Counted from the first letter of the stretch, positions 12,428 to 22,109 are shown. The stretch is DNA of 64,000 bases from Myxococcales bacterium (GCA_037445065.1 JBBILD010000010.1:32001-96000), one strand, 5' to 3'. The notes: generated by a model from the sequence alone, not told the origin. Translations and numbers: made by a program.

Positions 12428-13915
12428 TCAAAAGGTGAGCTGCATCTCGACGAAGCCGTAATTGCCGTCAGGGCTCGAGAACTGCTGGGCGAGCACCGCT
12501 TGCCCAAAGGCGTGGGCGTATAGCAGGTTCAGCGCGGCGTTCGGGTGGAGGCGAACCGTGCTGTACGCTTGCAGGAGGTGGGCAAGCTGCGTCTCGCCTT
12601 CAGTCGGTAGCCCGGCGTAGCCAAAGAAGGAGTCACTGGTGGCACCACCACCGCTGTAGAGAACGTCCTCCGCCTGGTCCACCTGCAACCAATGCCAATC
12701 GAAGCGCAGCACCCACCATGGTGTAGGAGCCAGCACGCTCTGCACGAACACGTCGCGGTTATTCATCATGTTGAAGAACGGGAACATCGCGTACTGCCAG
12801 GCGGTGGGCAGCATTTGAAAAAAAGTGCCGTGAGTACCGTCGTTCGGGTCGGAGTCTCCGGAACCAACGTTGATCCCCGCGCGCAGCCACGGCGAGGCCC
12901 AGGCTGCTTCCCACTTGTAGCCCGCTTCAATACCGTATGCGTACGCGCGCTGATCGAGTTCTTGCCAGTCCCCCACCTGGCCGTAGAAAAAGGCGCTCAG
13001 GTCGAGCTTGCCCTCCGGCAGAGCGAGAACATGTGCGGCATTTCCTCCCAGTGTATGGATCTCCAGCATCTGGCCTACGCTCTGCCGGCGTCGGTTCAGC
13101 GGGCGATTGTCCGTAACGACCAAGGCGCGTTCGTCCTGGTAGAGGCTCCAAAACACGCGCCCCACAGTGTTGGGAAGGGCCGCACTCGTATCCAGCAAGT
13201 TCGCGCTGACACCTGCCACCCGGATCTCGGGCAGGTTGCGCATGGCATCGGTTTCAAAGCCCCCGAAGGTCGGCAGAAAAGCAAAGGCCGAAAGCTCCCA
13301 TGTCGGCGCACGAAGCCCGAAGAGCGCACCATCGAAGCTGCGCCCGGTGTGCGTGTAATCAAAAGGACCAATCAACCGCTGCGACCAGCGCGTTTCTTGA
13401 ATCCACCGGAGGCTAGGATCGCGGGCCAGCCCCTGGCCTGCGTCACGGTACAGTTGCCGACCCAAGGCCACCGAGAAGCCCTCGTGCTGCAGGCGAAGCC
13501 AGCCCTGCCGCACAAAGACCGTGGCCTGCGTGCGGTCCGGAGTGTTTGCAACGTACACGGAGCCTACCCCGACTCCGTTTCGCGGCAACCCGGCGAGCAC
13601 CGTGTTCTGGCCCTGCAGGAACAACTCGACCACCTCGCTGCGCCAGCCGACACCGAGCTGCAACTTGTGGCCCACGAAGTCGTAACGCGATTCCCGCGGC
13701 TGCACAGATCCGCTGATCCGAGGGTCGCCGAACCAGTCGACAAACTCCCCGCGTAACCGCTCGCTGAGCGAGAGTCGCAACGTTCCGCCGCCGATGCCCC
13801 TCCACTCCAACGGCGGCACCTCTGGCGCACTGCTGAGCTGCCCCGTCGCCTGAGCCCGCGCGCTGAGGAAGCAAACGAGCCCCACACCCACCCATCCGAA
13901 GACGCGAAGCTTCAT
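12428..13915 (-). CDS. alginate-export family outer-membrane porin
   Basis: Signal peptide, alternating beta-strand pattern, LGRQ, RSFDG, GSGDSDPNDGTHGTFFQM motif, C-terminal Phe. RBS AAGGAGG. Confidence 0.8.
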   Translation of the reverse strand: MKLRVFGWVGVGLVCFLSARAQATGQLSSAPEVPPLEWRGIGGGTLRLSLSERLRGEFVDWFGDPRISGSVQPRESRYDFVGHKLQLGVGWRSEVVELFLQGQNTVLAGLPRNGVGVGSVYVANTPDRTQATVFVRQGWLRLQHEGFSVALGRQLYRDAGQGLARDPSLRWIQETRWSQRLIGPFDYTHTGRSFDGALFGLRAPTWELSAFAFLPTFGGFETDAMRNLPEIRVAGVSANLLDTSAALPNTVGRVFWSLYQDERALVVTDNRPLNRRRQSVGQMLEIHTLGGNAAHVLALPEGKLDLSAFFYGQVGDWQELDQRAYAYGIEAGYKWEAAWASPWLRAGINVGSGDSDPNDGTHGTFFQMLPTAWQYAMFPFFNMMNNRDVFVQSVLAPTPWWVLRFDWHWLQVDQAEDVLYSGGGATSDSFFGYAGLPTEGETQLAHLLQAYSTVRLHPNAALNLLYAHAFGQAVLAQQFSSPDGNYGFVEMQLTF

Positions 13916-14015: not shown

Positions 14016-14768
14016 TTACGCGCGCACGTCGCCGGCCCGCGGGCACTCGAATCGTTCGCCCTGCATGGGATCGCCGCCCGCACGTCCCCGGATCTCCTGC
14101 GCTTGCACGTGCAGGCGCTTCACCTCTTCCCGAACCGCAACACGAACGGCTGCCAGTAACTCCGGGTACGGCGCTGGCACGTTTTGGCGCGCCATTTCCG
14201 CTTCGAGAGCTCCCAGCCAGCGCGCCAAGTGATCTGCAAGGAACTGCCGAGCTGCGCTGCGCGTAATCGCCGCCTGTTCCCCCCAACGTTCCGCTCGCGC
14301 CCATGCTTCCTTGAACAAAAGCACGCTGTAAAACTCCAGTTCCACTGCCAAGTGATCGGCCCTCTCGTGCTGCAAGGACATGCCAAAAGCGCGGTAAAAG
14401 CCCTGCAGATCCGAGAGTTCCGCCGACTTGCCGGTGAGCCGCTGGCCGTCTCCGTATGCGGTTTCGTGCAGCGGGCAGCGCTGGTCGGTGGCAAAAAAAC
14501 GCGCGTAGCGCGCCGCCCGCTCCTCGCTAGAGCACCCGTGCCACGCAGCAGCCGCGCAGCCCAACGCGCGGCTGAGTTCCTCGCTCCACCCGGGCAAGTG
14601 GGACAACCGCCGCAACTCGCGCTCAAGTTGACCGTTGGCGTCCAGATAGGGGGAAGAAAACCCACGCGCGAGCGTACGAAACAGAGTGCACCGGCGGAGC
14701 ATTTCGAACACCCCTGTTTCCAGTTCGGTTGTGGAAGCAGGTGATTTCTTTGGCCCTGAAGCAGTCAT
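14016..14768 (-). CDS. TorD/DmsD/NarJ family molybdoenzyme maturation chaperone
   Basis: CPLHETAY, GFYRAFG, ERADHLAVELEF, FLADHLARW. ATG 14768 lies just after the gamma-subunit stop. Confidence 0.88.
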   Translation of the reverse strand: MTASGPKKSPASTTELETGVFEMLRRCTLFRTLARGFSSPYLDANGQLERELRRLSHLPGWSEELSRALGCAAAAWHGCSSEERAARYARFFATDQRCPLHETAYGDGQRLTGKSAELSDLQGFYRAFGMSLQHERADHLAVELEFYSVLLFKEAWARAERWGEQAAITRSAARQFLADHLARWLGALEAEMARQNVPAPYPELLAAVRVAVREEVKRLHVQAQEIRGRAGGDPMQGERFECPRAGDVRA

Positions 14769-14770
14769 GC

Positions 14771-15646
14771 TCACTCCTCGATTTGCACTGGCACCCACGG
14801 AGACCAAGCTTTGCGCGACCCGACCTCGCGGTTTCCCCCTTCCCACACCGCAAAGGCAGCCACGGTTTTTGCCCCGGGAGCAAGCTGCGGGTCGTTCTTG
14901 CTCGCAGTCTTGAGCGGGCGCGTGATGACCACCGACCAAGCGCCCTCCCGCCACACCCCGCGGCCATCGGCGTGCTCCTCCGCCTTGACCGTCATCGTCC
15001 CCCACCCTTCGGCCATTTGGTCCAACACCGGTGAGCGCCGCGGGTGGGAGATGGGATTGTCCACGCCCACCGCTCCCATGTACGGGCGTGCATCAATCGC
15101 GCTCAAGACCTGATCTGGGTACACATCCACCAGCGCGAACGGGTAGAGGTCGCGCACCTGTGGCTCGCCGTAATCCAAGTCGCGCTGAAAGGCGGCGCGC
15201 CACTGCATAATGGTCACACGAGCACCCGGGTTTCCCATCATCGGGCTGGGCAATGCGTCCTCTTGGAATTGATTCGGCAGCTCGACCGCGACCTGATCCC
15301 CAAACCGATCCAACACGATCACGTCACTCTGAGTAGAGTCGTCCCACTGCAGCCGGAAGGCCAGCCACTCACCGTTGTGCGCGGCTTGCACGCGGAGCTT
15401 TTGCACCGTGGCGTGCGGGTTGGTGGGGGCGGTAATGGTCTGCGGAAGCATCGTTACCTCGGTTGCCGGCACCTGCTCCCACCACGGTGCAAGAGGTTCT
15501 GCGAGGGAGCCCCGTTGCGCTACCCGCTTGCACTGGATGCCAGGAGCTTGGCCTGGCGATGGGGCACAGAGGGCGAGTATTCCCGCCGCCCATGCCGCCA
15601 CCACCCAGTGTCTTCCTCTCACCTTCCCTTCCCTCGAATCGGCCAT
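14771..15646 (-). CDS. heme b gamma subunit (ethylbenzene dehydrogenase EbdC/NxrC-like)
   Basis: Signal-like N-terminus, AAHNGEWLAFRLQWDD, candidate Met ligand in PSPMMG, WSVVITRPL, AFAVWEG, candidate Lys ligand in GSRK. Confidence 0.85.
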   Translation of the reverse strand: MADSREGKVRGRHWVVAAWAAGILALCAPSPGQAPGIQCKRVAQRGSLAEPLAPWWEQVPATEVTMLPQTITAPTNPHATVQKLRVQAAHNGEWLAFRLQWDDSTQSDVIVLDRFGDQVAVELPNQFQEDALPSPMMGNPGARVTIMQWRAAFQRDLDYGEPQVRDLYPFALVDVYPDQVLSAIDARPYMGAVGVDNPISHPRRSPVLDQMAEGWGTMTVKAEEHADGRGVWREGAWSVVITRPLKTASKNDPQLAPGAKTVAAFAVWEGGNREVGSRKAWSPWVPVQIEE

Positions 15647-15661
15647 GTCGCGCACCTCGGT

Positions 15662-16789
15662 TCACGTAATGTTGCTGCGCCAGGTTCCGAACCGCTCGTC
15701 GTACGCCGGGCGCACGTACGTCGGTTCTGTGAACGGCACCCACACCACCTCTTCGTTTTGCTCGTTGTACCCGCTCACCCCTCCCTGCCGCACGCGGTAG
15801 TGGTGAACGATCAATGGCGTCGAGCCAAACAGCAGCAGCGCAGCCAAAAGCTTCTCGTCCTCGGCCGCTTGCCGGTAACGAGCAATCGCCTCTGGAACTC
15901 CCCAACCGAACATTTGCTGCAAATACGGGAGCGGAACGTGGACCGGCGGGATGTAATACACGTTGGGCTCGAGTCCGAACTGTGGGTAGAGCGGCTTGGC
16001 CACCTTAGTTATGTGGACCAAGTAATCGAGCGGATTGTCCTCGCGGATTTGGTCGGGGCGGCTGATGAACCCCTGGAGGCGGATTTTGCCGATGCAGGTA
16101 ATGGTGCACTGCGTTTGCCGGCCAGACTCGACCGCCGGATAGCAGCCGACGCACTTCTCGGAGACCCGCGTCATCGGGTTGAAAAAGGACTTCTTGTAAG
16201 GGCACCCGCGCACGCATTCGCGGTAGCCGCGGCAGCGATTCTGATCGATCAGAACGATCCCGTCTTCTGGCCTCTTGTAGACCGATTGCCGCGGGCATGC
16301 GCCTAAACAGCCGGGATAAGTGCAGTGGTTACAAATGCGCGGCAGATAAAACATCCACTGTGCATGGGGGATGGTGAGAAACGCCCCTTTTTCCATCAGG
16401 CCGAACGAATCGTCCTCGCCAATGTTCGGGTGCGCGTAGTCCAGATCGTCCGGTAAAAAACCCAGAATTCTCTCCCCCGTCGGCGCCGCCTCGAACAGCG
16501 TCTTACCGTCGTACACCGGGCCATCCATGGGCTGCACGCCTAACTTTTCGAGGATGCGCACATCCCAGCCCAACGGGTAGTAACCGTACGGCTTGGACTC
16601 GACGTTGTTCCAAAACATGTACTCCTGCCCGCGCCCCGGGGTCCAGGTCGTCTTGCACGCCACCGTGCACGTCTGGCAGGCAATGCATTTGTTCAAATCG
16701 AGCACCATCGCGAACTGCTTTTGCGGCCGCGCCCCCTCGTACGGGTAGTCCATCTCGCGGCCGATCTGCCAATTGTAGACTTTGGGCAT
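15662..16789 (-). CDS. nxrB: NXR/NAR-type Fe-S beta subunit (NxrB-like)
   Basis: MPKVYNWQIGREMDYPY N-terminus as in periplasmic NxrB. Four Fe-S motifs: CIACQTCTVAC, CNHCTYPGCLGAC, CRGYRECVRGC, CVGC...CTITC. Also LYPQFGLEPNVYYIPP. Confidence 0.88.
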   Translation of the reverse strand: MPKVYNWQIGREMDYPYEGARPQKQFAMVLDLNKCIACQTCTVACKTTWTPGRGQEYMFWNNVESKPYGYYPLGWDVRILEKLGVQPMDGPVYDGKTLFEAAPTGERILGFLPDDLDYAHPNIGEDDSFGLMEKGAFLTIPHAQWMFYLPRICNHCTYPGCLGACPRQSVYKRPEDGIVLIDQNRCRGYRECVRGCPYKKSFFNPMTRVSEKCVGCYPAVESGRQTQCTITCIGKIRLQGFISRPDQIREDNPLDYLVHITKVAKPLYPQFGLEPNVYYIPPVHVPLPYLQQMFGWGVPEAIARYRQAAEDEKLLAALLLFGSTPLIVHHYRVRQGGVSGYNEQNEEVVWVPFTEPTYVRPAYDERFGTWRSNIT

Positions 16790-16802
16790 CGCTCCCCTCC
16801 TC

Positions 16803-19800
16803 TCACGCCTTCCGCACGAACTCGCCGCGTAGGTATTTTTTCACCGCCTCGTTCTCGTTGGTGGGGCGGAAGCCGAGACTCACCGGCCGCCAAGGGCCGC
16901 TGCCGTCCAGTCCACCGTCTTCCGCCTTCGTGAAGCGCGCCATCGCCTCGCGCGGCGCGCCGGTGACGCAGTGGACATCCACGTTAAACCCGCGCGTCAC
17001 CTCATGCGTCCACGACTTGCGGGTAATCAGGGAGTGGGTCTGGTGGGTGGGCTTTAGCCACGACCTCGTGAGGCTTTGATGCCCGCCGTAGCGGAACAAG
17101 GCCTGGTAGTGGGTCTCCGGATTCTTGGCCACTCCGTCCGGCCGCGTTTCATGAGCCTGCACGGTCCCGGGGGTGGCCATGTAGCCGTTGAACCACATGC
17201 GAGCGACGCCGCGCGGGGTTCCGGGATAGTAGCGCGCACGTGCCAGCAAGCGCGCGACTTTGTACTCTTCCTTGCGCTTCGGATCTTGCCACCCCCGGAA
17301 CGGCAAGTCCGCCGGGTCTCCATCAATCCAAACGTAGTCACCATCCTGGATGCCGAGCTCGCGTGCATCGAGTGGGTTGATGTCCACGTACATCTCCCCG
17401 GTGCCAGGCGAGCGCCGGTCACGCCGGTACATGTCCCCGAAGGGGCCGAACAGCGCCGCCATGTAATCGGTGTCAATCGGCATGGTGTGGGCGCCATGCC
17501 GGTACTTGGGCGTGTGGAAGATATACCGGTATCCCGCGGAAAGAAGCGGATGGCTGGTTTTCAACAGCTCTGCCGGCGGAAGCGGGACGTTGCGCATCTG
17601 CCGCGTCATGTGCGACCGATCTTCAGGCGGGATGCCCCAGTCCGCGGGCTGCTTTGGTCGCAGGGCCGGGTGGGGCGCCGCGGCAATGGCGCACGGCTCG
17701 TAGAATGTCGACTCGGCCGGTTCGCGGTGTACGGGTAGGTTCTCCCCGGCGTCCACGAACTCCGGCTCGGGCCGGTAAAACTCGAGGCGGCCGGTCTTCG
17801 TGTACCAGGGTTTCGACTCCTGCACTTGCTCGAAGCTGTTGATGCGCGGGTAGGAACGGGTGTTCATCAGAGCCGGCACTCCGGCTTTCGCTAGCTCTTC
17901 GAGATCCTCGAACTTGTATCCACGCAGCGGCGTGGAGCCGTCTATGATCCGCTGCAGGTAGACCTCCGCGCGGCCCTCGGCGATGAAGTGCCACATTTGC
18001 TCGAAACGCGCGTCGCCGGTGAGCTCGGCCAGTTCGCGCGCCACACCGAGGTAAGTCTCGTTATCGGAAACCGTCTCGAAGACCCGCTTGGCTGGGGTTC
18101 GCGGATAGGCCTGTATGAACGGGTTGGTGTTCGATGCGGTCATGTCGGGGAAGCGAAACTCCATCCAGGAGTCCACCCCGTACACGATGTCACTGTACTC
18201 GCACGAGCCTGTCCACCACCAGTCGTTGTACACCACCAGTTCCACCCGCGGCAGGGTGTTGAACACGACGTCGAAGTGCCCCTTTTGGTTTCCCAAGCTG
18301 GAATTGGAGTTTACCTGCCAAATCGCCTTGGTCGGCGTGGGGCAATGAGGCCCACTGGTGATCTTCTTGTTCCCTGCCTTTAAGATCCGCTCGCCGTTGG
18401 CCCAGTAGTGCATGGATTCCGAGCGCACGTAGGGCCGCGCTTTGACCTCTCCAGCCGGGTCGAGCTGCGGGTGGAACGGGTCTTCCAGCACGTACCGGGA
18501 GGCCACACCGCTAAACAGGGTGTTCTTGTAGGTGCCCGCGTAGCTGCCGATGTTGGCGCCGTGGCGCCCGAGGTTGGCGGTGAGGGCAAGAACCAAGAAC
18601 AGGGCGCGATCCTTGTTATCGTTGTTCCAAAACTGGTTCGGGCCCATACCGCAGGCGATCATCGTTTGCCCCCGATGGGCTGCAATGTCTCGCGCCAACG
18701 AAACGATCGCCTGCTCCGGAGCCCAAGTGAGCGCTGCCACTTGTTTCGGAGTCATGTTGGCGTCGAGGTAGTCGCGAATGAGGCTTAGCACCGGACGTAC
18801 TTCCACCTTCTTCCCGTCCACCAGTTCCACGGTGTACGTGCCTTCCAGCGCCGGCTCGATCCCCAAGTGGGCGAAGTGCTCCCCCAAGTCATCGTGGCTT
18901 ACAGCCACGGGTTTTCGCGTACGCAGATCCCACATCACGAAATCGGCGAACTCGCCCAGCAGGGCCTCTGGAATCTGCTTTCCCTCTTGCTGAATCGTCG
19001 GCGGGGCTTTTTGATCTTTGGCAACCACGCGCGTACTGTTTTGCGGCGGGCGGTCCTGGTGCCTTGGAAATACATCCGCCGCGCGCAGGCGCTCGAGCGT
19101 GTCCATGCGCACGAGGGTGGGCAAATCGGTGTAACGGCGCACGAAATCAGCGTCGTAGCGTTTTTCTGCGAGAATCACTTGCGCCAGTCCCAGCGCCAGT
19201 GCGGGGTCGCTTCCCGGGCGAATCACCACCACCTCGTCGCATTTGGACGCGGTAGCCGAGTATTCGACCGTGACGGCTACGACTTTGGTGCCCTTTAGCC
19301 GCGCTTCGGTCAGCCAGTGGCTATCCGGCATCTTGGTGGTGATCCAGTTCATGCCCCACACCAGCAAGAGCTTGGCGTGCTCGACGTCGAACAACTCGAA
19401 ATCGTTGGTTTGCTCGCCCGTGACCATCGGGTGCCCGGGCGGCAAGTCGGTGTGGAACGAGTAAGAGTCCCAGGTTCCGCCGCCCCGCGCTTGCTCGGGT
19501 GACACACCGCGCAGGTGGGCATCGAGAAGGGCCATGCTGTTGGCGAAACGGAAGGCGCCAAAGATGCGCACGGCACCTTGCTTCGCCATGCCGCCGCGGA
19601 ACTTGAGCACGGCCGTACCAGCGCCCCCCGTCTGTTCGACCATGTCCGGGTCGTGGCCCTGGGCAAGAAGGCGCCTCTTGCCCTCTTCTCCACTGTAGGT
19701 CTTGGCAATGTTGTAGAGCGCAGCCGCGTGGTAACGGTACGCTTCCGCGTGCGAGACCCGCACCCAGTGATCGAAGCCGCGCCGGAACAGTTCGCGCGGC

Positions 19801-20291
19801 GGGGCACCGGTCACCGGATCGCGCGGAAAGCCTCGGTCCACCCACTCTTTGAACCCTTTCCGCAAGAAGGCACCGTTAATACGCCTGTCCCCGTAAAAGC
19901 GGCGCGCCAGCACCAGCCCCTTCTGGCAACAGCGCGGATCCCAGCGGTGCGAAGCTTGGTGTCCGTACAGGTCACGCGCCTTTCCGTACCCGTAGGTGGG
20001 CTCGATTCGCACGACGACGTCGTTTTTGACGAAGGCGCGCAGCAGGCAGTTGTGGGTGTCGTTCGGGCAACACAGAAACACGAAGCTGCCGTCGGTCCGG
20101 AAAATGTCTCGATAAACCTTCTCCCACCCGCGTGTCGGGTAGCCAGCAAGCGGGTTCGGCACGACCACCGGATCGAGAAACCCCCCTGCGCCAGCAGCTT
20201 GGCTCGGGTCGGCCGCCACCCCCAAACCCGCCGCCGCCGCGAGTTCGAGAAACCGGCGGCGAGAAATTCCACCCATTTTCTCGTCCCGCAT
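16803..20291 (-). CDS. nxrA: type II DMSO-reductase family molybdoenzyme alpha subunit, periplasmic NxrA-like (1162 aa)
   Basis: RBS GGAGGAGG and Tat motif SRRRFLE. NPLAGYP..WEKVY, FS0 motif CCPNDTHNC...C, Mo-ligand region [13 protein letters not shown]. The C-terminus [20 protein letters not shown]...KAEDGG..G.GPW.PV..GF.P..E is collinear with Nitrospira/anammox NxrA as I recall them. Catalytic direction unknown. Confidence 0.88.
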
Positions 20292-20319
20292 GCCAGTCCT
20301 CCTCCGCGTGCCGACCCCA

Positions 20320-20336
20320 AGCAAGGCGAAGGCCAG
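20320..20336 (-). promoter_or_regulatory. candidate sigma54 (-24/-12) promoter of the nxr-like operon
   Basis: Minus strand reads CTGGCCTTCGCCTTGCT, i.e. TGGC-N7-TTGCW with exact GG-N10-GC spacing, about 30 bp upstream of the ATG. Confidence 0.55.
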
Positions 20337-20526
20337 CGCTGTGGGCGCGCAGCCGGCGGTAGTCGCTCTCGATTCCTTCCTATCCTTAAGAGACCGAGAA
20401 GAGTGCCCGCCCTGCCCGAGCCACACCCGGAATCCTCTGCCTTTGGCCGCCGGCGCTGCAGCCAAGGGCTACGCAACGGCCCGCCATTGCGCGAGCCCTG
20501 CGCCCTTCGTATATGGGCGCGCGGTC

Positions 20527-20946
20527 ATGGCGCAAAGCACACAACGAATGGTCCCGAAACCCACGCCAGAGACGCGGCCCTTTTGGGAAGGTGCCCGCCA
20601 GCGCGAACTGCGCATCCAACGCTGCCTCGATTGCAACTCCTGTTACTTCTACCCGCGTCCGCTTTGCCCGTACTGTCTCTCGCGCAACGTGGCTTGGATC
20701 AGAGCCAGCGGCCGCGGACGCTTGCACACCTTCGTCATCAACCACCGCCCTCCTCGCCACTTTCCCGCCGATGGCCCGTACATCATCGGCATTGTGGAAC
20801 TCGAGGAGGGCCCACGCATGATGACCCACATCGTGGGGGTCGAGCCGCGACCGGAGGCGCTGCGCTGCGACATGCCGGTGGAGGTCGTGTTCGAGGACCT
20901 CAGCGAAGAGATCACCTTGCCGAAGTTCCGCCCCGCTGCCCCATGA
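20527..20946 (+). CDS. Zn-ribbon/OB-fold protein (DUF35, ChsH2-like)
   Basis: PFWEGA, IQRCLDC...CPYC, ASGRGRLHTF, VELEEGPRM. ATGA overlap with the thiolase. Confidence 0.92.
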   Translation: MAQSTQRMVPKPTPETRPFWEGARQRELRIQRCLDCNSCYFYPRPLCPYCLSRNVAWIRASGRGRLHTFVINHRPPRHFPADGPYIIGIVELEEGPRMMTHIVGVEPRPEALRCDMPVEVVFEDLSEEITLPKFRPAAP

Positions 20947-22109
20947 GCGATCGTCGTCGGAGAGAGTTACGCGGCCGGGTTGCAATTGTGGGAGTGGCCG
21001 AATCGGACGAACTCGGCCGCTTGCCGCACAAATCGGCGCTGGCACTGCACATCGAAGCCGCTCACAACGCGCTTGCGGATGCCGGGCTCAGCAAAAAAGA
21101 CGTGGACGCGGTGTTCAGCTCTGGCCGCAACATGGCCAACGAAATCCCGGAGTATTTGGGAATTCGCCCTTGCTTTATCGGTGGGACGCAAATCGGTGGC
21201 TGCTCGTTTCTTTTGCATGTGGAGCACGCCATGGCCGCCATCACTTCCGGGCTTTGCGAAGTGGCACTCATCACCCACGGTGAAAGCGGCTACTCGCGCG
21301 TCGGGATGCCCGCGAATCGGTGGGGCGAGGATTCGAACAACGCCCAGTTCGAGCTCGTGTACGGGCACGCCGGACCGCCCACCGGATACGGACTGGTGGC
21401 CACGCGCCACATGCACGTTTACGGCACCACTAAGGAACAAATGGCAGAAGTGGCGGTGGCGACCCGCAAGTGGGCAGCACTCAATCCCAAGGCGCTCATG
21501 CGTGACCCGATCACCATTGACGACGTTTTGCAATCGCGTCTCATTGCCTGGCCCTTCAACCTGCTCGACTGCTGTTTGGTGACCGACGGCGGCGGTGCGG
21601 TGGTGGTCACCTCCGCGGAGCGCGCGCGCGACCTACCCAAGAAGCCGGTGTACGTGCTCGGCACGGGCGAATGCGTCACGCATCAAATGGTGAGCCAGAT
21701 GCCGAACTTCCACCAGTGGGACGCTGCGATCGTATCCGGTCAGCGCGCCTTCGAGATGGCGGGAGTTCGACCCGCAGATGTGGACGTGGCGGAGCTGTAC
21801 GACGCCTTTACCATCGTGCCGATCCTGGCGCTAGAAGCGCTCGGCTTTTGCAAACCAGGGGAAGGTGGCGCATTCGTTGCCGGACAGCGCACTGCACCGG
21901 GCGGCGAGTTTCCGATGAACACCAATGGCGGCGGGCTTTCTTACACGCACACCGGGATGTACGGGATCTTCACGATCATCGAAGCTGTGCGCCAGCTTCG
22001 CGGTGAGTGCGGGCCACGCCAAGTGGCCAACGCGCGCGTTGCCCTCTGCCATGGCACGGGTGGTACGTGGAGTTCGGCCGCAACGCTGATTCTCTCGACC
22101 GAGCGATAA
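20943..22109 (+). CDS. SCP-x/Ltp-type thiolase-family protein
   Basis: VAIVGVAES, DCCLVTDGGGAVVV, ELYDAFT, NTNGGGLS, EAVRQLRG. The track's 19515 start is an antisense extension. Confidence 0.9.
   Translation: MSDRRRRELRGRVAIVGVAESDELGRLPHKSALALHIEAAHNALADAGLSKKDVDAVFSSGRNMANEIPEYLGIRPCFIGGTQIGGCSFLLHVEHAMAAITSGLCEVALITHGESGYSRVGMPANRWGEDSNNAQFELVYGHAGPPTGYGLVATRHMHVYGTTKEQMAEVAVATRKWAALNPKALMRDPITIDDVLQSRLIAWPFNLLDCCLVTDGGGAVVVTSAERARDLPKKPVYVLGTGECVTHQMVSQMPNFHQWDAAIVSGQRAFEMAGVRPADVDVAELYDAFTIVPILALEALGFCKPGEGGAFVAGQRTAPGGEFPMNTNGGGLSYTHTGMYGIFTIIEAVRQLRGECGPRQVANARVALCHGTGGTWSSAATLILSTER

What the first reader, a model, noticed from the sequence alone, without database searches (positions are those of the whole stretch)
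14016..20291. Divergent periplasmic NXR-type operon in an apparently heterotrophic, lipid-degrading bacterium
Seen: a Tat-exported alpha subunit with a C-x3-D-x3-C FS0 motif, a beta subunit, a Met/Lys heme-b gamma subunit and a TorD chaperone; no NarI or quinol dehydrogenase in the cluster. Established: Asp-containing FS0 and this alpha/beta/gamma layout characterise Nitrospira/Nitrospina/anammox NXR, whereas NarG has His-Cys3. The Mo-ligand loop ([19 protein letters not shown]) looks intermediate between NarG (DLPP...GEQT) and Nitrospira NxrA as I recall them, and the beta subunit keeps four Cys in its first motif. Inference: a deep-branching NXR/periplasmic-NAR clade member. It could indicate unrecognised nitrite oxidation, nitrate respiration or another oxyanion substrate; direction cannot be read from sequence.
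Basis: partly seen in the sequence, partly recalled or inferred. Interest (0 to 1): 0.8.

Follow-up and report, generated by a model that had tools for sequence, protein, structure and literature searches.

The report
Periplasmic NXR-like nitrate/nitrite oxidoreductase operon
This is an intact four-gene operon for an exported molybdenum enzyme that interconverts nitrate and nitrite; it belongs to a large, already noticed but barely tested sister group of the nitrifiers' nitrite oxidoreductase, so it is an ordinary member of a known kind and not a deep new branch.

Summary
On the minus strand lie a Tat-exported alpha subunit (16803-20291), beta (15662-16789), a haem-b gamma (14771-15655) and a NarJ/TorD-type chaperone (14016-14768). 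There is no NarI or quinol dehydrogenase.

All three structural subunits match Kuenenia NXR (PDB 7B04) best: alpha scores 921 bits, against 191 for PcrA, 143 for EbdA and at most 121 for NarG.

The "deep-branching" reading fails. In two trees alpha is a shallow leaf of a crowded crown group. Homologues there are 68-89% identical and come from Magnetococcales, Thiomargarita, Thioalkalivibrio, Rokubacteria and Binatia. This group lies inside the published sister clade of Nitrospira/Nitrospina/anammox NXR. Alpha is 41.5% identical to Brocadia NxrA and 52% to the Methanoperedens enzyme.

The host is a Binatia genome. I found no RuBisCO, ATP-citrate lyase, NarG, NapA, nirK or nirS. It has three aa3-type oxidases and a NasC/NirB-like pair.

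Direction cannot be read from sequence. I favour cytochrome-c-fed nitrate reduction (about 0.55) over nitrite oxidation (about 0.25).

A single-copy AlgE-like outer-membrane porin travels with these operons in Binatia.

Earlier agents of this scan reached the same verdict on three other genomes.

Verdict: new member of a known kind, with modest interest.

The parts
16803..20291 (-). alpha (NxrA/NarG-like) catalytic Mo-bisPGD subunit, 1162 aa. Tat signal SRRRFLE; FS0 C74/D78/C82/C122; N77; Mo ligand D282.
   Evidence: Scores 921 bits over its full length to 7B04 chain B.
15662..16789 (-). beta (NxrB/NarH-like) Fe-S subunit, 375 aa, with four Cys groups. It lacks the extra length of canonical NxrB.
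   Evidence: 391.5 bits to 7B04 chain A; beta is 375-378 aa in most sister-clade loci and 403-444 aa in most canonical-clade loci.
14771..15655 (-). gamma (NxrC/EbdC-like) soluble haem-b subunit, 294 aa. N-terminal signal; haem ligands M140 and K282.
   Evidence: 69 bits to 7B04 chain C, 53 bits to EbdC; no transmembrane helix beyond the signal, no CxxCH.
14016..14768 (-). delta, a NarJ/TorD-type assembly chaperone of about 250 aa. Its ATG lies 2 nt after the gamma stop codon.
   Evidence: PF02613, E 1.3e-16; TIGR03482, 62 bits; translation.
20292..20520 (.). Upstream region shared with the divergent ChsH2-like gene. It holds no FNR box (two mismatches allowed) and no sigma-70 consensus match.
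12428..13915 (-). AlgE-like (Alginate_exp) outer-membrane beta-barrel, 495 aa with a signal peptide. It lies 100 nt downstream of delta on the same strand. It is a likely companion channel, not a core part.
   Evidence: PF13372, E 4e-15; single copy in the genome; adjacent or within about 7.5 kb in 9 of 13 sister-clade loci of Binatia relatives; no terminator-like site in the 100-nt gap.

Best explanation
The operon encodes a soluble periplasmic nitrate/nitrite oxidoreductase. It belongs to the 'sister clade' of the Nitrospira/Nitrospina/anammox NXR.

Proposed mechanism:
1. Alpha is folded and loaded with Mo-bisPGD and FS0 in the cytoplasm with the help of delta.
2. Alpha is exported by Tat with beta as a passenger. 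Gamma is exported by Sec and receives haem b.
3. Electrons run between the Mo site (ligand D282, substrate held by N77) and the periplasmic face. The path is FS0 (3 Cys + Asp78), the four Fe-S clusters of beta, and the Met140/Lys282 haem b of gamma.
4. Because the complex has no membrane anchor, it must exchange electrons with soluble or membrane-bound c-type cytochromes encoded elsewhere.

In this aerobic, apparently heterotrophic Binatia bacterium I think it most likely works as a respiratory nitrate reductase when oxygen runs short. The route would be quinol to a cytochrome c reductase, to cytochrome c, to gamma, beta and alpha, and on to nitrate. The enzyme probably remains reversible.

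Shown: gene set, cofactor ligands, export signals, clade placement and genome inventory. Inferred: substrate, direction, redox partner and regulation.
For: Enzyme class:
- The best solved relatives of all three structural subunits are Kuenenia NXR-A, -B and -C: 921, 391.5 and 69 bits.
- FS0 C-x3-D-x3-C...C, the substrate Asn and the Mo Asp are conserved with Brocadia, Nitrospinota and Methanoperedens sequences.
- The residues are named in PMC8387239 (passages read).

Clade:
- FastTree on 138 rows and IQ-TREE LG+C20 on 42 rows both put the window in the sister clade with 100 support.
- Identity is 52.1% to the Methanoperedens enzyme and 41.5% to Brocadia NxrA.

Pointers towards nitrate reduction:
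- The sister clade holds the Hydrogenobacter thermophilus enzyme, characterised as a periplasmic NAR (PMC6050957, passages). It also holds the nitrate reducers Methanoperedens BLZ1 and Thermogutta (PMC10732223, passages).
- The crown group includes nitrate-storing Thiomargarita.
- Among 48 host genomes of the crown group, 19 have nirS and 6 have nirK over the cut-off. Of these 25 hosts, 12 or 13 showed neither NarG nor NapA. There, this enzyme is the only candidate found for the first denitrification step.
- A Crp/Fnr-type regulator gene flanks the operon in 4 of 20 loci examined.
- This genome has no other dissimilatory nitrate reductase. Its only other nitrate-reductase-like Mo enzyme is NasC-like.
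- No CBB or rTCA marker was found.
- A NirB-like gene beside NasC could consume the nitrite formed.
Against: - No member of this crown group has been tested biochemically, as far as the papers I read say.
- The one cultured organism of the sister clade with a proven phenotype besides nitrate reducers is Ca. Nitrotoga, a nitrite oxidiser. NXRs are bidirectional in vitro (PMC8387239, abstract and passages).
- This genome has no nirK and no convincing nirS, so there is no denitrification chain to feed.
- It has three aa3-type cytochrome c oxidases. No cytochrome bd was found and no subunit I scored as cbb3-type CcoN. That fits an aerobe able to burn nitrite-derived electrons as well as it fits nitrate respiration.
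- No FNR box precedes the operon here.
- 23 of the 48 crown-group hosts have neither nirS nor nirK over the cut-off.
- MAG incompleteness weakens every 'not found'.
- I could not fetch a Nitrotoga or Hydrogenobacter sequence, so their distance to this protein is untested.
Confidence: 0.55

Rival explanations
1. The enzyme works mainly as a nitrite oxidase. Periplasmic nitrite is oxidised to nitrate and the electrons pass through haem b and cytochrome c to the aa3-type oxidases. This would give an aerobic heterotroph extra energy (lithoheterotrophy) or remove toxic nitrite.
For: - The clade is sister to enzymes that are all NXRs and contains the Nitrotoga NXR (PMC6050957, passages).
- The haem-b Met/Lys ligation that Chicano et al. 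link to a high potential is kept (PMC8387239).
- The genome has three aa3-type oxidases and no nirK, nirS, NarG or NapA.
- There is no FNR box upstream.
- 15 of 48 crown-group hosts carry RuBisCO, so autotrophic use elsewhere is possible.
Against: - No RuBisCO and no ATP-citrate lyase over the cut-off here.
- The Mo loop is the HTDLPPGH type of the outgroups and of the Methanoperedens enzyme, not the HGDQAPGH of the canonical NXR clade.
- About half of the nirS/nirK hosts lack any other nitrate reductase.
- Crp/Fnr-type regulator genes lie beside 4 of 20 operons.
- The RuBisCO hosts are mostly named as sulfur oxidisers in their record titles.
Confidence: 0.25
2. [quoted passage not shown]
For: - All subunits fall below the curated NCBIfam cut-offs.
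- The neighbouring genes are for lipid and CoA metabolism.
- A Chlor_dismutase-family gene exists elsewhere in the genome.
Against: - Similarity to PcrA, EbdA and NarG is four to eight times lower in bits than to NXR.
- The substrate Asn, which is Ile in EbdA according to PMC8387239, is kept.
- The catalytic motifs are near-identical to those of the Methanoperedens enzyme.
- The flanking genes are not conserved across 20 related loci.
- The Chlor_dismutase family hit is on another contig, and the family also matches in 7 of 14 control genomes.
Confidence: 0.07
3. The operon is a recent horizontal acquisition that is silent or decaying in this genome.
For: - The window's alpha groups with a mostly proteobacterial set (77% to the best named locus). 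Genomes of its own family carry a 68% version that groups with Rokubacteria.
- One family-mate, G020, has alpha in three pieces and a stop codon in the adjacent porin.
Against: - All four frames are intact, with tight spacing of 13, 6 and 2 nt, and a strong ribosome-binding site.
- G+C is 62-64%, as in the rest of the window.
- All cofactor ligands are kept.
Confidence: 0.03

Closest known systems
Kuenenia stuttgartiensis nitrite oxidoreductase NXR-ABC (PDB 7B04; Chicano et al. 2021, PMC8387239)
   Same: - Alpha/beta/gamma architecture with a soluble haem-b gamma.
- FS0 with 3 Cys + 1 Asp, the substrate Asn, the Mo Asp, and Met/Lys haem ligation.
- Best PDB match of all three subunits.
   Different: - Only about 41.5% identical in alpha, measured against Brocadia, which the paper says is about 85% identical to Kuenenia.
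- It lies in the other half of the superclade.
- The Mo loop is HTDLPPGH instead of HGDQAPGH.
- Beta is 375 aa against about 403-410 aa in the Brocadiaceae loci.
- No NXR-T-like cytochrome gene is present. The gene order is alpha-beta-gamma-delta.
'Sister clade' of the periplasmic NXRs: Ca. Nitrotoga NXR plus putative periplasmic NARs (Kitzinger et al. 2018, PMC6050957). Its members include the Hydrogenobacter thermophilus pNAR, the Beggiatoa and Hydrogenobaculum enzymes, and the Methanoperedens nitrate reductase.
   Same: - Tat-alpha, Sec-gamma without a membrane helix, and an alpha-beta-gamma-delta operon.
- Four Cys in the first beta motif and no eight-residue insertion, as the paper reports for Nitrotoga NxrB.
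- 52% identical to the Methanoperedens alpha.
- Thiomargarita/Thiotrichaceae sequences lie in the same crown group.
   Different: - Nitrotoga's Mo motif ends in QM according to the paper. Here, and in 281 of the 302 motif matches scanned (302 summed's tally), it ends in QT.
- Boddicker and Mosier (bioRxiv 10.1101/317552, passages read) place Nitrotoga next to archaeal sequences and give NxrC as 371-372 aa, against 294 aa here.
- I could not obtain Nitrotoga or Hydrogenobacter sequences to measure the distance.
Periplasmic cytochrome-c-fed type II reductases with a haem-b gamma (SerABC, ClrABC, PcrAB; PcrA structure 4YDD)
   Same: Soluble periplasmic alpha/beta(/gamma) plus a TorD-like chaperone. 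Electrons are taken from c-type cytochromes and not from a NarI-type quinol oxidase. This is the working model proposed here; the electron route of these enzymes is recalled, not taken from a call.
   Different: Alpha scores only 191 bits to PcrA. The outgroup rows nearest PcrA have Cys where this protein has Asp78. The substrate differs.
Membrane-bound NarGHI (E. coli, PDB 1Q16)
   Same: Same superfamily. The Asp Mo ligand sits in a DLPPGH-type loop. It has a NarJ-type chaperone and acts on nitrate.
   Different: Cytoplasmic orientation, a NarI dihaem quinol oxidase, and a His ligand at FS0. Alpha scores only 116-121 bits. No NarI gene is present here.

Membership tests
Type II DMSO-reductase family (alpha/beta/gamma/delta enzymes) | Mo-bisPGD alpha with an Asp ligand loop and an N-terminal FS0 motif; four-cluster beta; EB_dh-type haem-b gamma; NarJ/TorD-type chaperone | tested here: met
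   TIGR03479, TIGR03478, TIGR03477 and TIGR03482 are the top NCBIfam hits, all below their cut-offs. Motifs.
Periplasmic NXR superclade (canonical NXR plus sister clade) | Tat signal on alpha | tested here: met
   SRRRFLE at residues 10-16, read. It aligns with the Tat region of 7B04 chain B.
Periplasmic NXR superclade (canonical NXR plus sister clade) | FS0 ligated by 3 Cys + 1 Asp (C67/D71/C75/C115 in Kuenenia) and substrate Asn70 | tested here: met
   C74/D78/C82/C122 and N77. The six outgroup rows have Cys at the Asp position.
Periplasmic NXR superclade (canonical NXR plus sister clade) | Gamma haem b with Met/Lys ligation | tested here: met
   M140 and K282 align with M155 and K305 of 7B04 chain C.
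Periplasmic NXR superclade (canonical NXR plus sister clade) | Monophyly with NXR against other type II enzymes | tested here: met
   Support of 100 in both trees. The outgroups were unnamed or PcrA-like representatives. No bona fide EbdA, SerA or NarG row was in the trees, so these were compared only through PDB scores.
Canonical NXR clade (Nitrospira/Nitrospina/anammox; proven nitrite oxidisers) | Placement inside that clade | tested here: not met
   The window falls in the sister clade (24 of the 36 ingroup rows), with 100 support. Identity is 41.5-42.4% to the Brocadia and Nitrospinota alphas.
Canonical NXR clade (Nitrospira/Nitrospina/anammox; proven nitrite oxidisers) | Mo loop HGDQAPGH and a longer beta subunit | tested here: not met
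   The loop here is HTDLPPGH. Beta is 375 aa, against 403-444 aa in most canonical-clade loci.
Canonical NXR clade (Nitrospira/Nitrospina/anammox; proven nitrite oxidisers) | Nitrite-oxidising physiology of the host | not testable with these tools
   The organism is uncultured and no RNA run was listed. No RuBisCO and no ATP-citrate lyase over the cut-off.
Sister clade of periplasmic NXR (Nitrotoga NXR / putative pNAR) | Grouping with named members (Methanoperedens, Thiomargarita/Beggiatoa-type) apart from the canonical NXR | tested here: met
   Membership of Methanoperedens and Nitrotoga in this wing is taken from PMC6050957 and PMC10732223 (passages read).
Sister clade of periplasmic NXR (Nitrotoga NXR / putative pNAR) | Closeness to the two functionally anchored members (Nitrotoga NXR, Hydrogenobacter pNAR) | not tested
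   No sequence of either could be fetched. A motif scan of the genome collection found none, and no QM-type sequence was in my set.
Membrane-bound NarGHI | NarI quinol-oxidising membrane subunit, cytoplasmic alpha, His at FS0 | tested here: not met
   No NarI gene nearby, a Tat signal on alpha, and Cys/Asp ligation at FS0. NarG scores 116-121 bits.
EbdA / steroid C25 dehydrogenase / SerA / PcrA clades | Higher similarity to these than to NXR; Ile (EbdA) at the substrate Asn position | tested here: not met
   Scores of 143 bits (EbdA) and 191 bits (PcrA) against 921 bits for NXR. Asn77 is kept. No solved steroid C25 dehydrogenase or SerA chain reached E <= 1e-5.

The most novel reading that the evidence does not exclude
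Aerobic, organic-matter-degrading Binatia of the subsurface use this soluble NXR-type enzyme to oxidise nitrite. Nitrite would enter through a dedicated AlgE-like outer-membrane anion channel, and the electrons would pass through cytochrome c to their aa3 oxidases. That would make a widespread heterotrophic lineage an unrecognised producer of nitrate outside the classical nitrifiers.
Probability: 0.15. Interest if true: 0.7.

Novelty: new member of a known kind. Interest (0 to 1): 0.3.

Why it matters
Metagenome surveys routinely score genes of this clade as 'nxrA' or 'narG' at will, which shifts inferred nitrification or denitrification budgets. This case adds three things:
- The clade is very large and phylogenetically promiscuous.
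- In Binatia, 28 of the 61 genomes searched carry at least one NXR-family alpha, from three different lineages.
- About half of the nirS/nirK hosts of the crown group show no other nitrate reductase.

The gap is biochemical. One characterised member of the crown group would settle how thousands of annotations should read. The find itself does not change the picture.

Tried and rejected
- **Nitrotoga NxrA for the tree.** A degenerate DNA pattern was built from the published Y-4x-D-11x-QM motif plus the conserved H and PGH. It gave 3 loci, one Omnitrophota and two Roseburia. No QM-type sequence was among the 302 motif matches scanned (302 summed's tally). Two literature searches for the clade with Magnetococcales or Rokubacteria found 0 papers.
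- **FNR box upstream.** There were 10 matches with up to two mismatches in the window, against 7.9 expected, and none lay in 20292-20650.
- **Sigma-70 promoter and terminator scan.** Nothing above chance.
- **Conserved neighbours.** The flanks of 20 crown-group loci were scanned against Pfam (145 ORFs). They share no electron carrier or transporter. A Crp/Fnr-type regulator appears in 4, cytochrome c genes in 2 (L002, L036) and Moco synthesis genes in 2.
- **Cys/His-rich accessory ORF in front of alpha.** None is present here.
- **Expression.** No RNA holder was listed. No reads were laid.
- **Chlorite dismutase as a pointer tochlorate.** The family matches on another contig, but it also matches in 7 of 14 control genomes. 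It is uninformative.
- **Porin as a dedicated NXR subunit.** Rejected in its strong form. The porin is present in 121 of 251 genomes of the class, including genomes without an NXR-family alpha, and sits in varied contexts there.

Full report
**What is there**

Four genes lie on the minus strand, separated by 13, 6 and 2 nt.

- Alpha is 16803-20291 (1162 aa). Its ATG sits 7 nt after GGAGGAGG.
- Beta is 15662-16789 (375 aa).
- Gamma is 14771-15655 (294 aa).
- Delta is 14016-14768.

Pfam gives Molybdopterin (E 3.8e-14), Fer4_11 (1.9e-27), EB_dh (2.7e-29) and Nitrate_red_del (1.3e-16). The best NCBIfam models are the four 'DMSO reductase family type II' models. All four scores fall well below the curated cut-offs: 304/985, 257/481, 132/170 and 62/152 bits.

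- Alpha starts with a twin-arginine signal (SRRRFLE).
- It carries C74-x3-D78-x3-C82 with C122, Asn77, and the loop Y-SFHT-D282[13 protein letters not shown].
- Beta's first motif has four Cys.
- Gamma's M140 and K282 align with the haem-b ligands M155 and K305 of Kuenenia NxrC (ligands from PMC8387239, passages read).
- Gamma has no hydrophobic stretch beyond its signal, and no subunit has a CxxCH motif.
- No NarI, quinol dehydrogenase or cytochrome c gene lies nearby.

**Which family**

Against all solved structures, each structural subunit matches Kuenenia NXR (7B04) best.

- Alpha scores 921 bits over its full length (E 1.1e-275). PcrA scores 191, EbdA 143 and NarG 116-121.
- Beta scores 391.5 bits, against 218, 200 and 192.
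- Gamma scores 69 bits, against 53 for EbdC.

That condition is not met.

**Where in the family**

The protein is far from alone.

- A word-indexed search found 2831 proteins at E <= 1e-20 among the 8000 candidates scored. All 120 listed are 71-89% identical over 95% or more of the query.
- In the species-representative genome collection, 618 of 629 pattern hits encode relatives. The 67 loci kept are named Magnetococcales, Thiomargarita, Thioalkalivibrio thiocyanoxidans, Thioalkalicoccus limnaeus, Hyphomicrobiaceae, Acidiferrobacterales, Burkholderiales, Polyangiaceae, Rokubacteria/Methylomirabilota, Binatia and others.
- A second scan, seeded with a distant representative, brought Brocadiaceae, Nitrospinota, Omnitrophota, SAR202 and Methanoperedens loci.

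I built two trees: FastTree on 138 full-length alphas and IQ-TREE with LG+C20 on 42.

- Both show an NXR superclade with 100 support. It splits into the canonical NXR clade (Brocadia, Nitrospinota and others) and a sister clade, also with 100 support.
- The sister clade holds SAR202, a Gaiellaceae representative, Methanoperedens, Acidobacteriota, Bdellovibrionota and a crown group. The crown group is 55 of 138 rows in the first tree and 13 of 42 in the second.
- The window is a short terminal branch of that crown group (0.07-0.09).

Identities are 89% to P0002, 76% to L003, about 68% to HR30 and Thioalkalivibrio, 52% to Methanoperedens, 41.5% to Brocadia, 42% to Nitrospinota and 30-33% to the outgroups.

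The outgroups were unnamed representatives whose nearest solved relative is PcrA, at 387-472 bits. Named Halorussus, Thermincola and Ammonifex proteins were also included. No bona fide EbdA, SerA or NarG row was available to me.

This topology matches the literature.

- Kitzinger et al. 2018 (PMC6050957, passages) describe a sister clade of the periplasmic NXRs. It contains the Nitrotoga NXR and putative periplasmic NARs, among them the characterised Hydrogenobacter thermophilus enzyme.
- Chicano et al. 2021 (PMC8387239, passages) give about 40% identity between Kuenenia NxrA and the Nitrotoga and Hydrogenobaculum proteins. They also list a Beggiatoa nitrate reductase in this wing.
- PMC10732223 (passages) names Methanoperedens BLZ1 and Thermogutta as nitrate reducers in the same major clade.

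'Deep-branching' is therefore wrong. 'NXR/periplasmic-NAR clade member' is right.

**Motifs**

The Asp at FS0 and the substrate Asn are shared by both halves of the superclade and are absent from the six outgroup rows, which have PNC. The Mo loop HTDLPPGH is shared by the sister clade and the outgroups. The canonical clade has HGDQAPGH.

Beta is 375-378 aa in most sister-clade loci and 403-444 aa in most canonical ones.

The gene order alpha-beta-gamma-delta holds in 43 of the 44 crown-group loci that contain all four genes.

**The host**

The genome is 3.79 Mb in 46 contigs, 97.7% complete, and has one NXR-type alpha. Contig lengths tie three of its relatives' handles to loci titled Binatia. 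Earlier notes of this scan also call it Binatia.

Not found:
- RuBisCO.
- nirK.
- A convincing nirS; the best hit is 27 bits over 59 positions.
- ATP-citrate lyase over the cut-off.
- A PF00033 cytochrome b.
- Cytochrome bd.
- NarG or NapA. The other Mo enzymes are NasC-like, PhsA-like, an unassigned one of 762 aa, and NuoG.

Found:
- Three aa3-type oxidase subunits I and one divergent haem-copper oxidase.
- A NIR_SIR protein next to the NasC-like gene.

The window itself is rich in acyl-CoA dehydrogenases, hydratases, thiolase-like and carboxylase genes. An aerobic heterotroph is a fair description. Each absence carries the caveat of a draft genome.

**Direction**

Sequence cannot decide the direction. 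I looked for indirect evidence in 48 host genomes of the crown group.

- NarG is present in 8 and NapA over the cut-off in 8, with one more partial hit.
- nirS is present in 19 and nirK over the cut-off in 6, with four weaker hits.
- RuBisCO is present in 15.
- Of the 25 hosts with nirS or nirK, 12 or 13 showed neither NarG nor NapA. There, the NXR-like enzyme is the only candidate found for nitrate reduction.
- Crp/Fnr-type regulators flank 4 of 20 operons.

These points, together with the nitrate-reducing named relatives, tilt me towards nitrate reduction, fed through c-type cytochromes as in other soluble type II reductases.

Several facts keep nitrite oxidation alive at about one in four.

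- This genome has no nitrite reductase of denitrification and no FNR box.
- Its respiratory chain looks purely aerobic.
- 23 of the 48 hosts lack nirS and nirK.
- MAGs are incomplete.
- Nitrotoga shows that the wing can oxidise nitrite.

**History in Binatia**

Among 61 relatives, G000 included, 28 have an NXR-family alpha at E <= 1e-100, from three lineages.

- The crown group, at 68-79% identity to the window.
- The middle of the sister clade, at 56-60%.
- The canonical-type clade, at 40-43%.

Several genomes hold two of these. Family-mates of genus g9, the HR30 type, carry the 68% version that groups with Rokubacteria. The window's version groups with a genome of another family of the same order (77%) inside a mainly proteobacterial set. 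That indicates at least one transfer or replacement. G+C gives no sign that it was recent.

**Porin**

An AlgE-like outer-membrane barrel (12428-13915) lies 100 nt after delta on the same strand.

- It is single-copy in the genome.
- Homologues lie beside or within about 7.5 kb of the operon in 9 of 13 sister-clade loci of relatives, and in 0 of 7 canonical-type loci.
- They also lie beside the operon in the HR30 and Binatia R1 loci and in one Omnitrophota locus.
- Yet 121 of 251 genomes of the class have the porin, including genomes without an NXR-family alpha. There its neighbours vary, and once they are another Mo/Fe-S/Rieske cluster.

I read it as a general anion channel that is often recruited next to these operons. 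It is not a subunit.

The tallies include G044, which is flagged as unpublished.

**Verdict**

This is a real, intact, well-preserved operon of a known but biochemically neglected clade. Three earlier follow-ups of this scan reached the same reading on other genomes.

Noticed in passing
window 12428-13915 (-); also L058:6162-7862, L060:6243-7865, L169-L179: A single-copy AlgE-like (Alginate_exp) outer-membrane porin lies next to, or within about 7.5 kb of, sister-clade NXR-like operons. This holds in the window and in 9 of 13 loci of Binatia relatives, but in 0 of 7 canonical-type NXR loci. The porin also occurs in many genomes without the enzyme.
   Followed up: partly
L050:14857-18627 (Thioalkalicoccus limnaeus): In this purple sulfur bacterium the NXR-like alpha-beta-gamma-delta operon is followed, about 1.4 kb downstream on the same strand, by a NarG-family gene that scores 1419 bits, over the narG cut-off. 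Two kinds of nitrate/nitrite oxidoreductase therefore sit side by side in a phototroph.
   Followed up: no
G000 relatives: e.g. G015, G016, G023, G032, G053: Single Binatia genomes carry two NXR-family alphas from different lineages (56-58% and 41-42% identical to the window's). 28 of the 61 genomes searched have at least one.
   Followed up: partly
G020:C1:35861-40816: In one family-mate the crown-group alpha is split into three pieces, and the adjacent porin homologue holds an in-frame TAG. This may be joint decay of both genes.
   Followed up: no
G000:C39:5001-6371 (L153:1447-3147): A fourth haem-copper oxidase subunit I (566 aa) scores only 90 bits to the CtaD model, while three others score 575-685 bits. 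Its subfamily, oxidase or NO-reductase-like, was not determined.
   Followed up: no
G309:C87:120822-121712 (about L061:994-1884): In a Methylomirabilota MAG a copper nitrite reductase (nirK, 360 bits, over the cut-off) lies about 6 kb upstream of the NXR-like operon.
   Followed up: no
L198:1680-7882 (G042): In a Binatia genome where no NXR-family alpha was found, the porin homologue sits next to another cluster of a molybdopterin oxidoreductase, a 4Fe-4S protein and a Rieske protein.
   Followed up: no
window 20290-22109 (+): Divergent from the operon lie a ChsH2-type OB-fold/zinc-ribbon gene and an SCP2-type thiolase-like gene. One canonical-type NXR locus of a relative (L184) has the same pair about 6 kb from its alpha. 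No functional link to the operon was seen.
   Followed up: no
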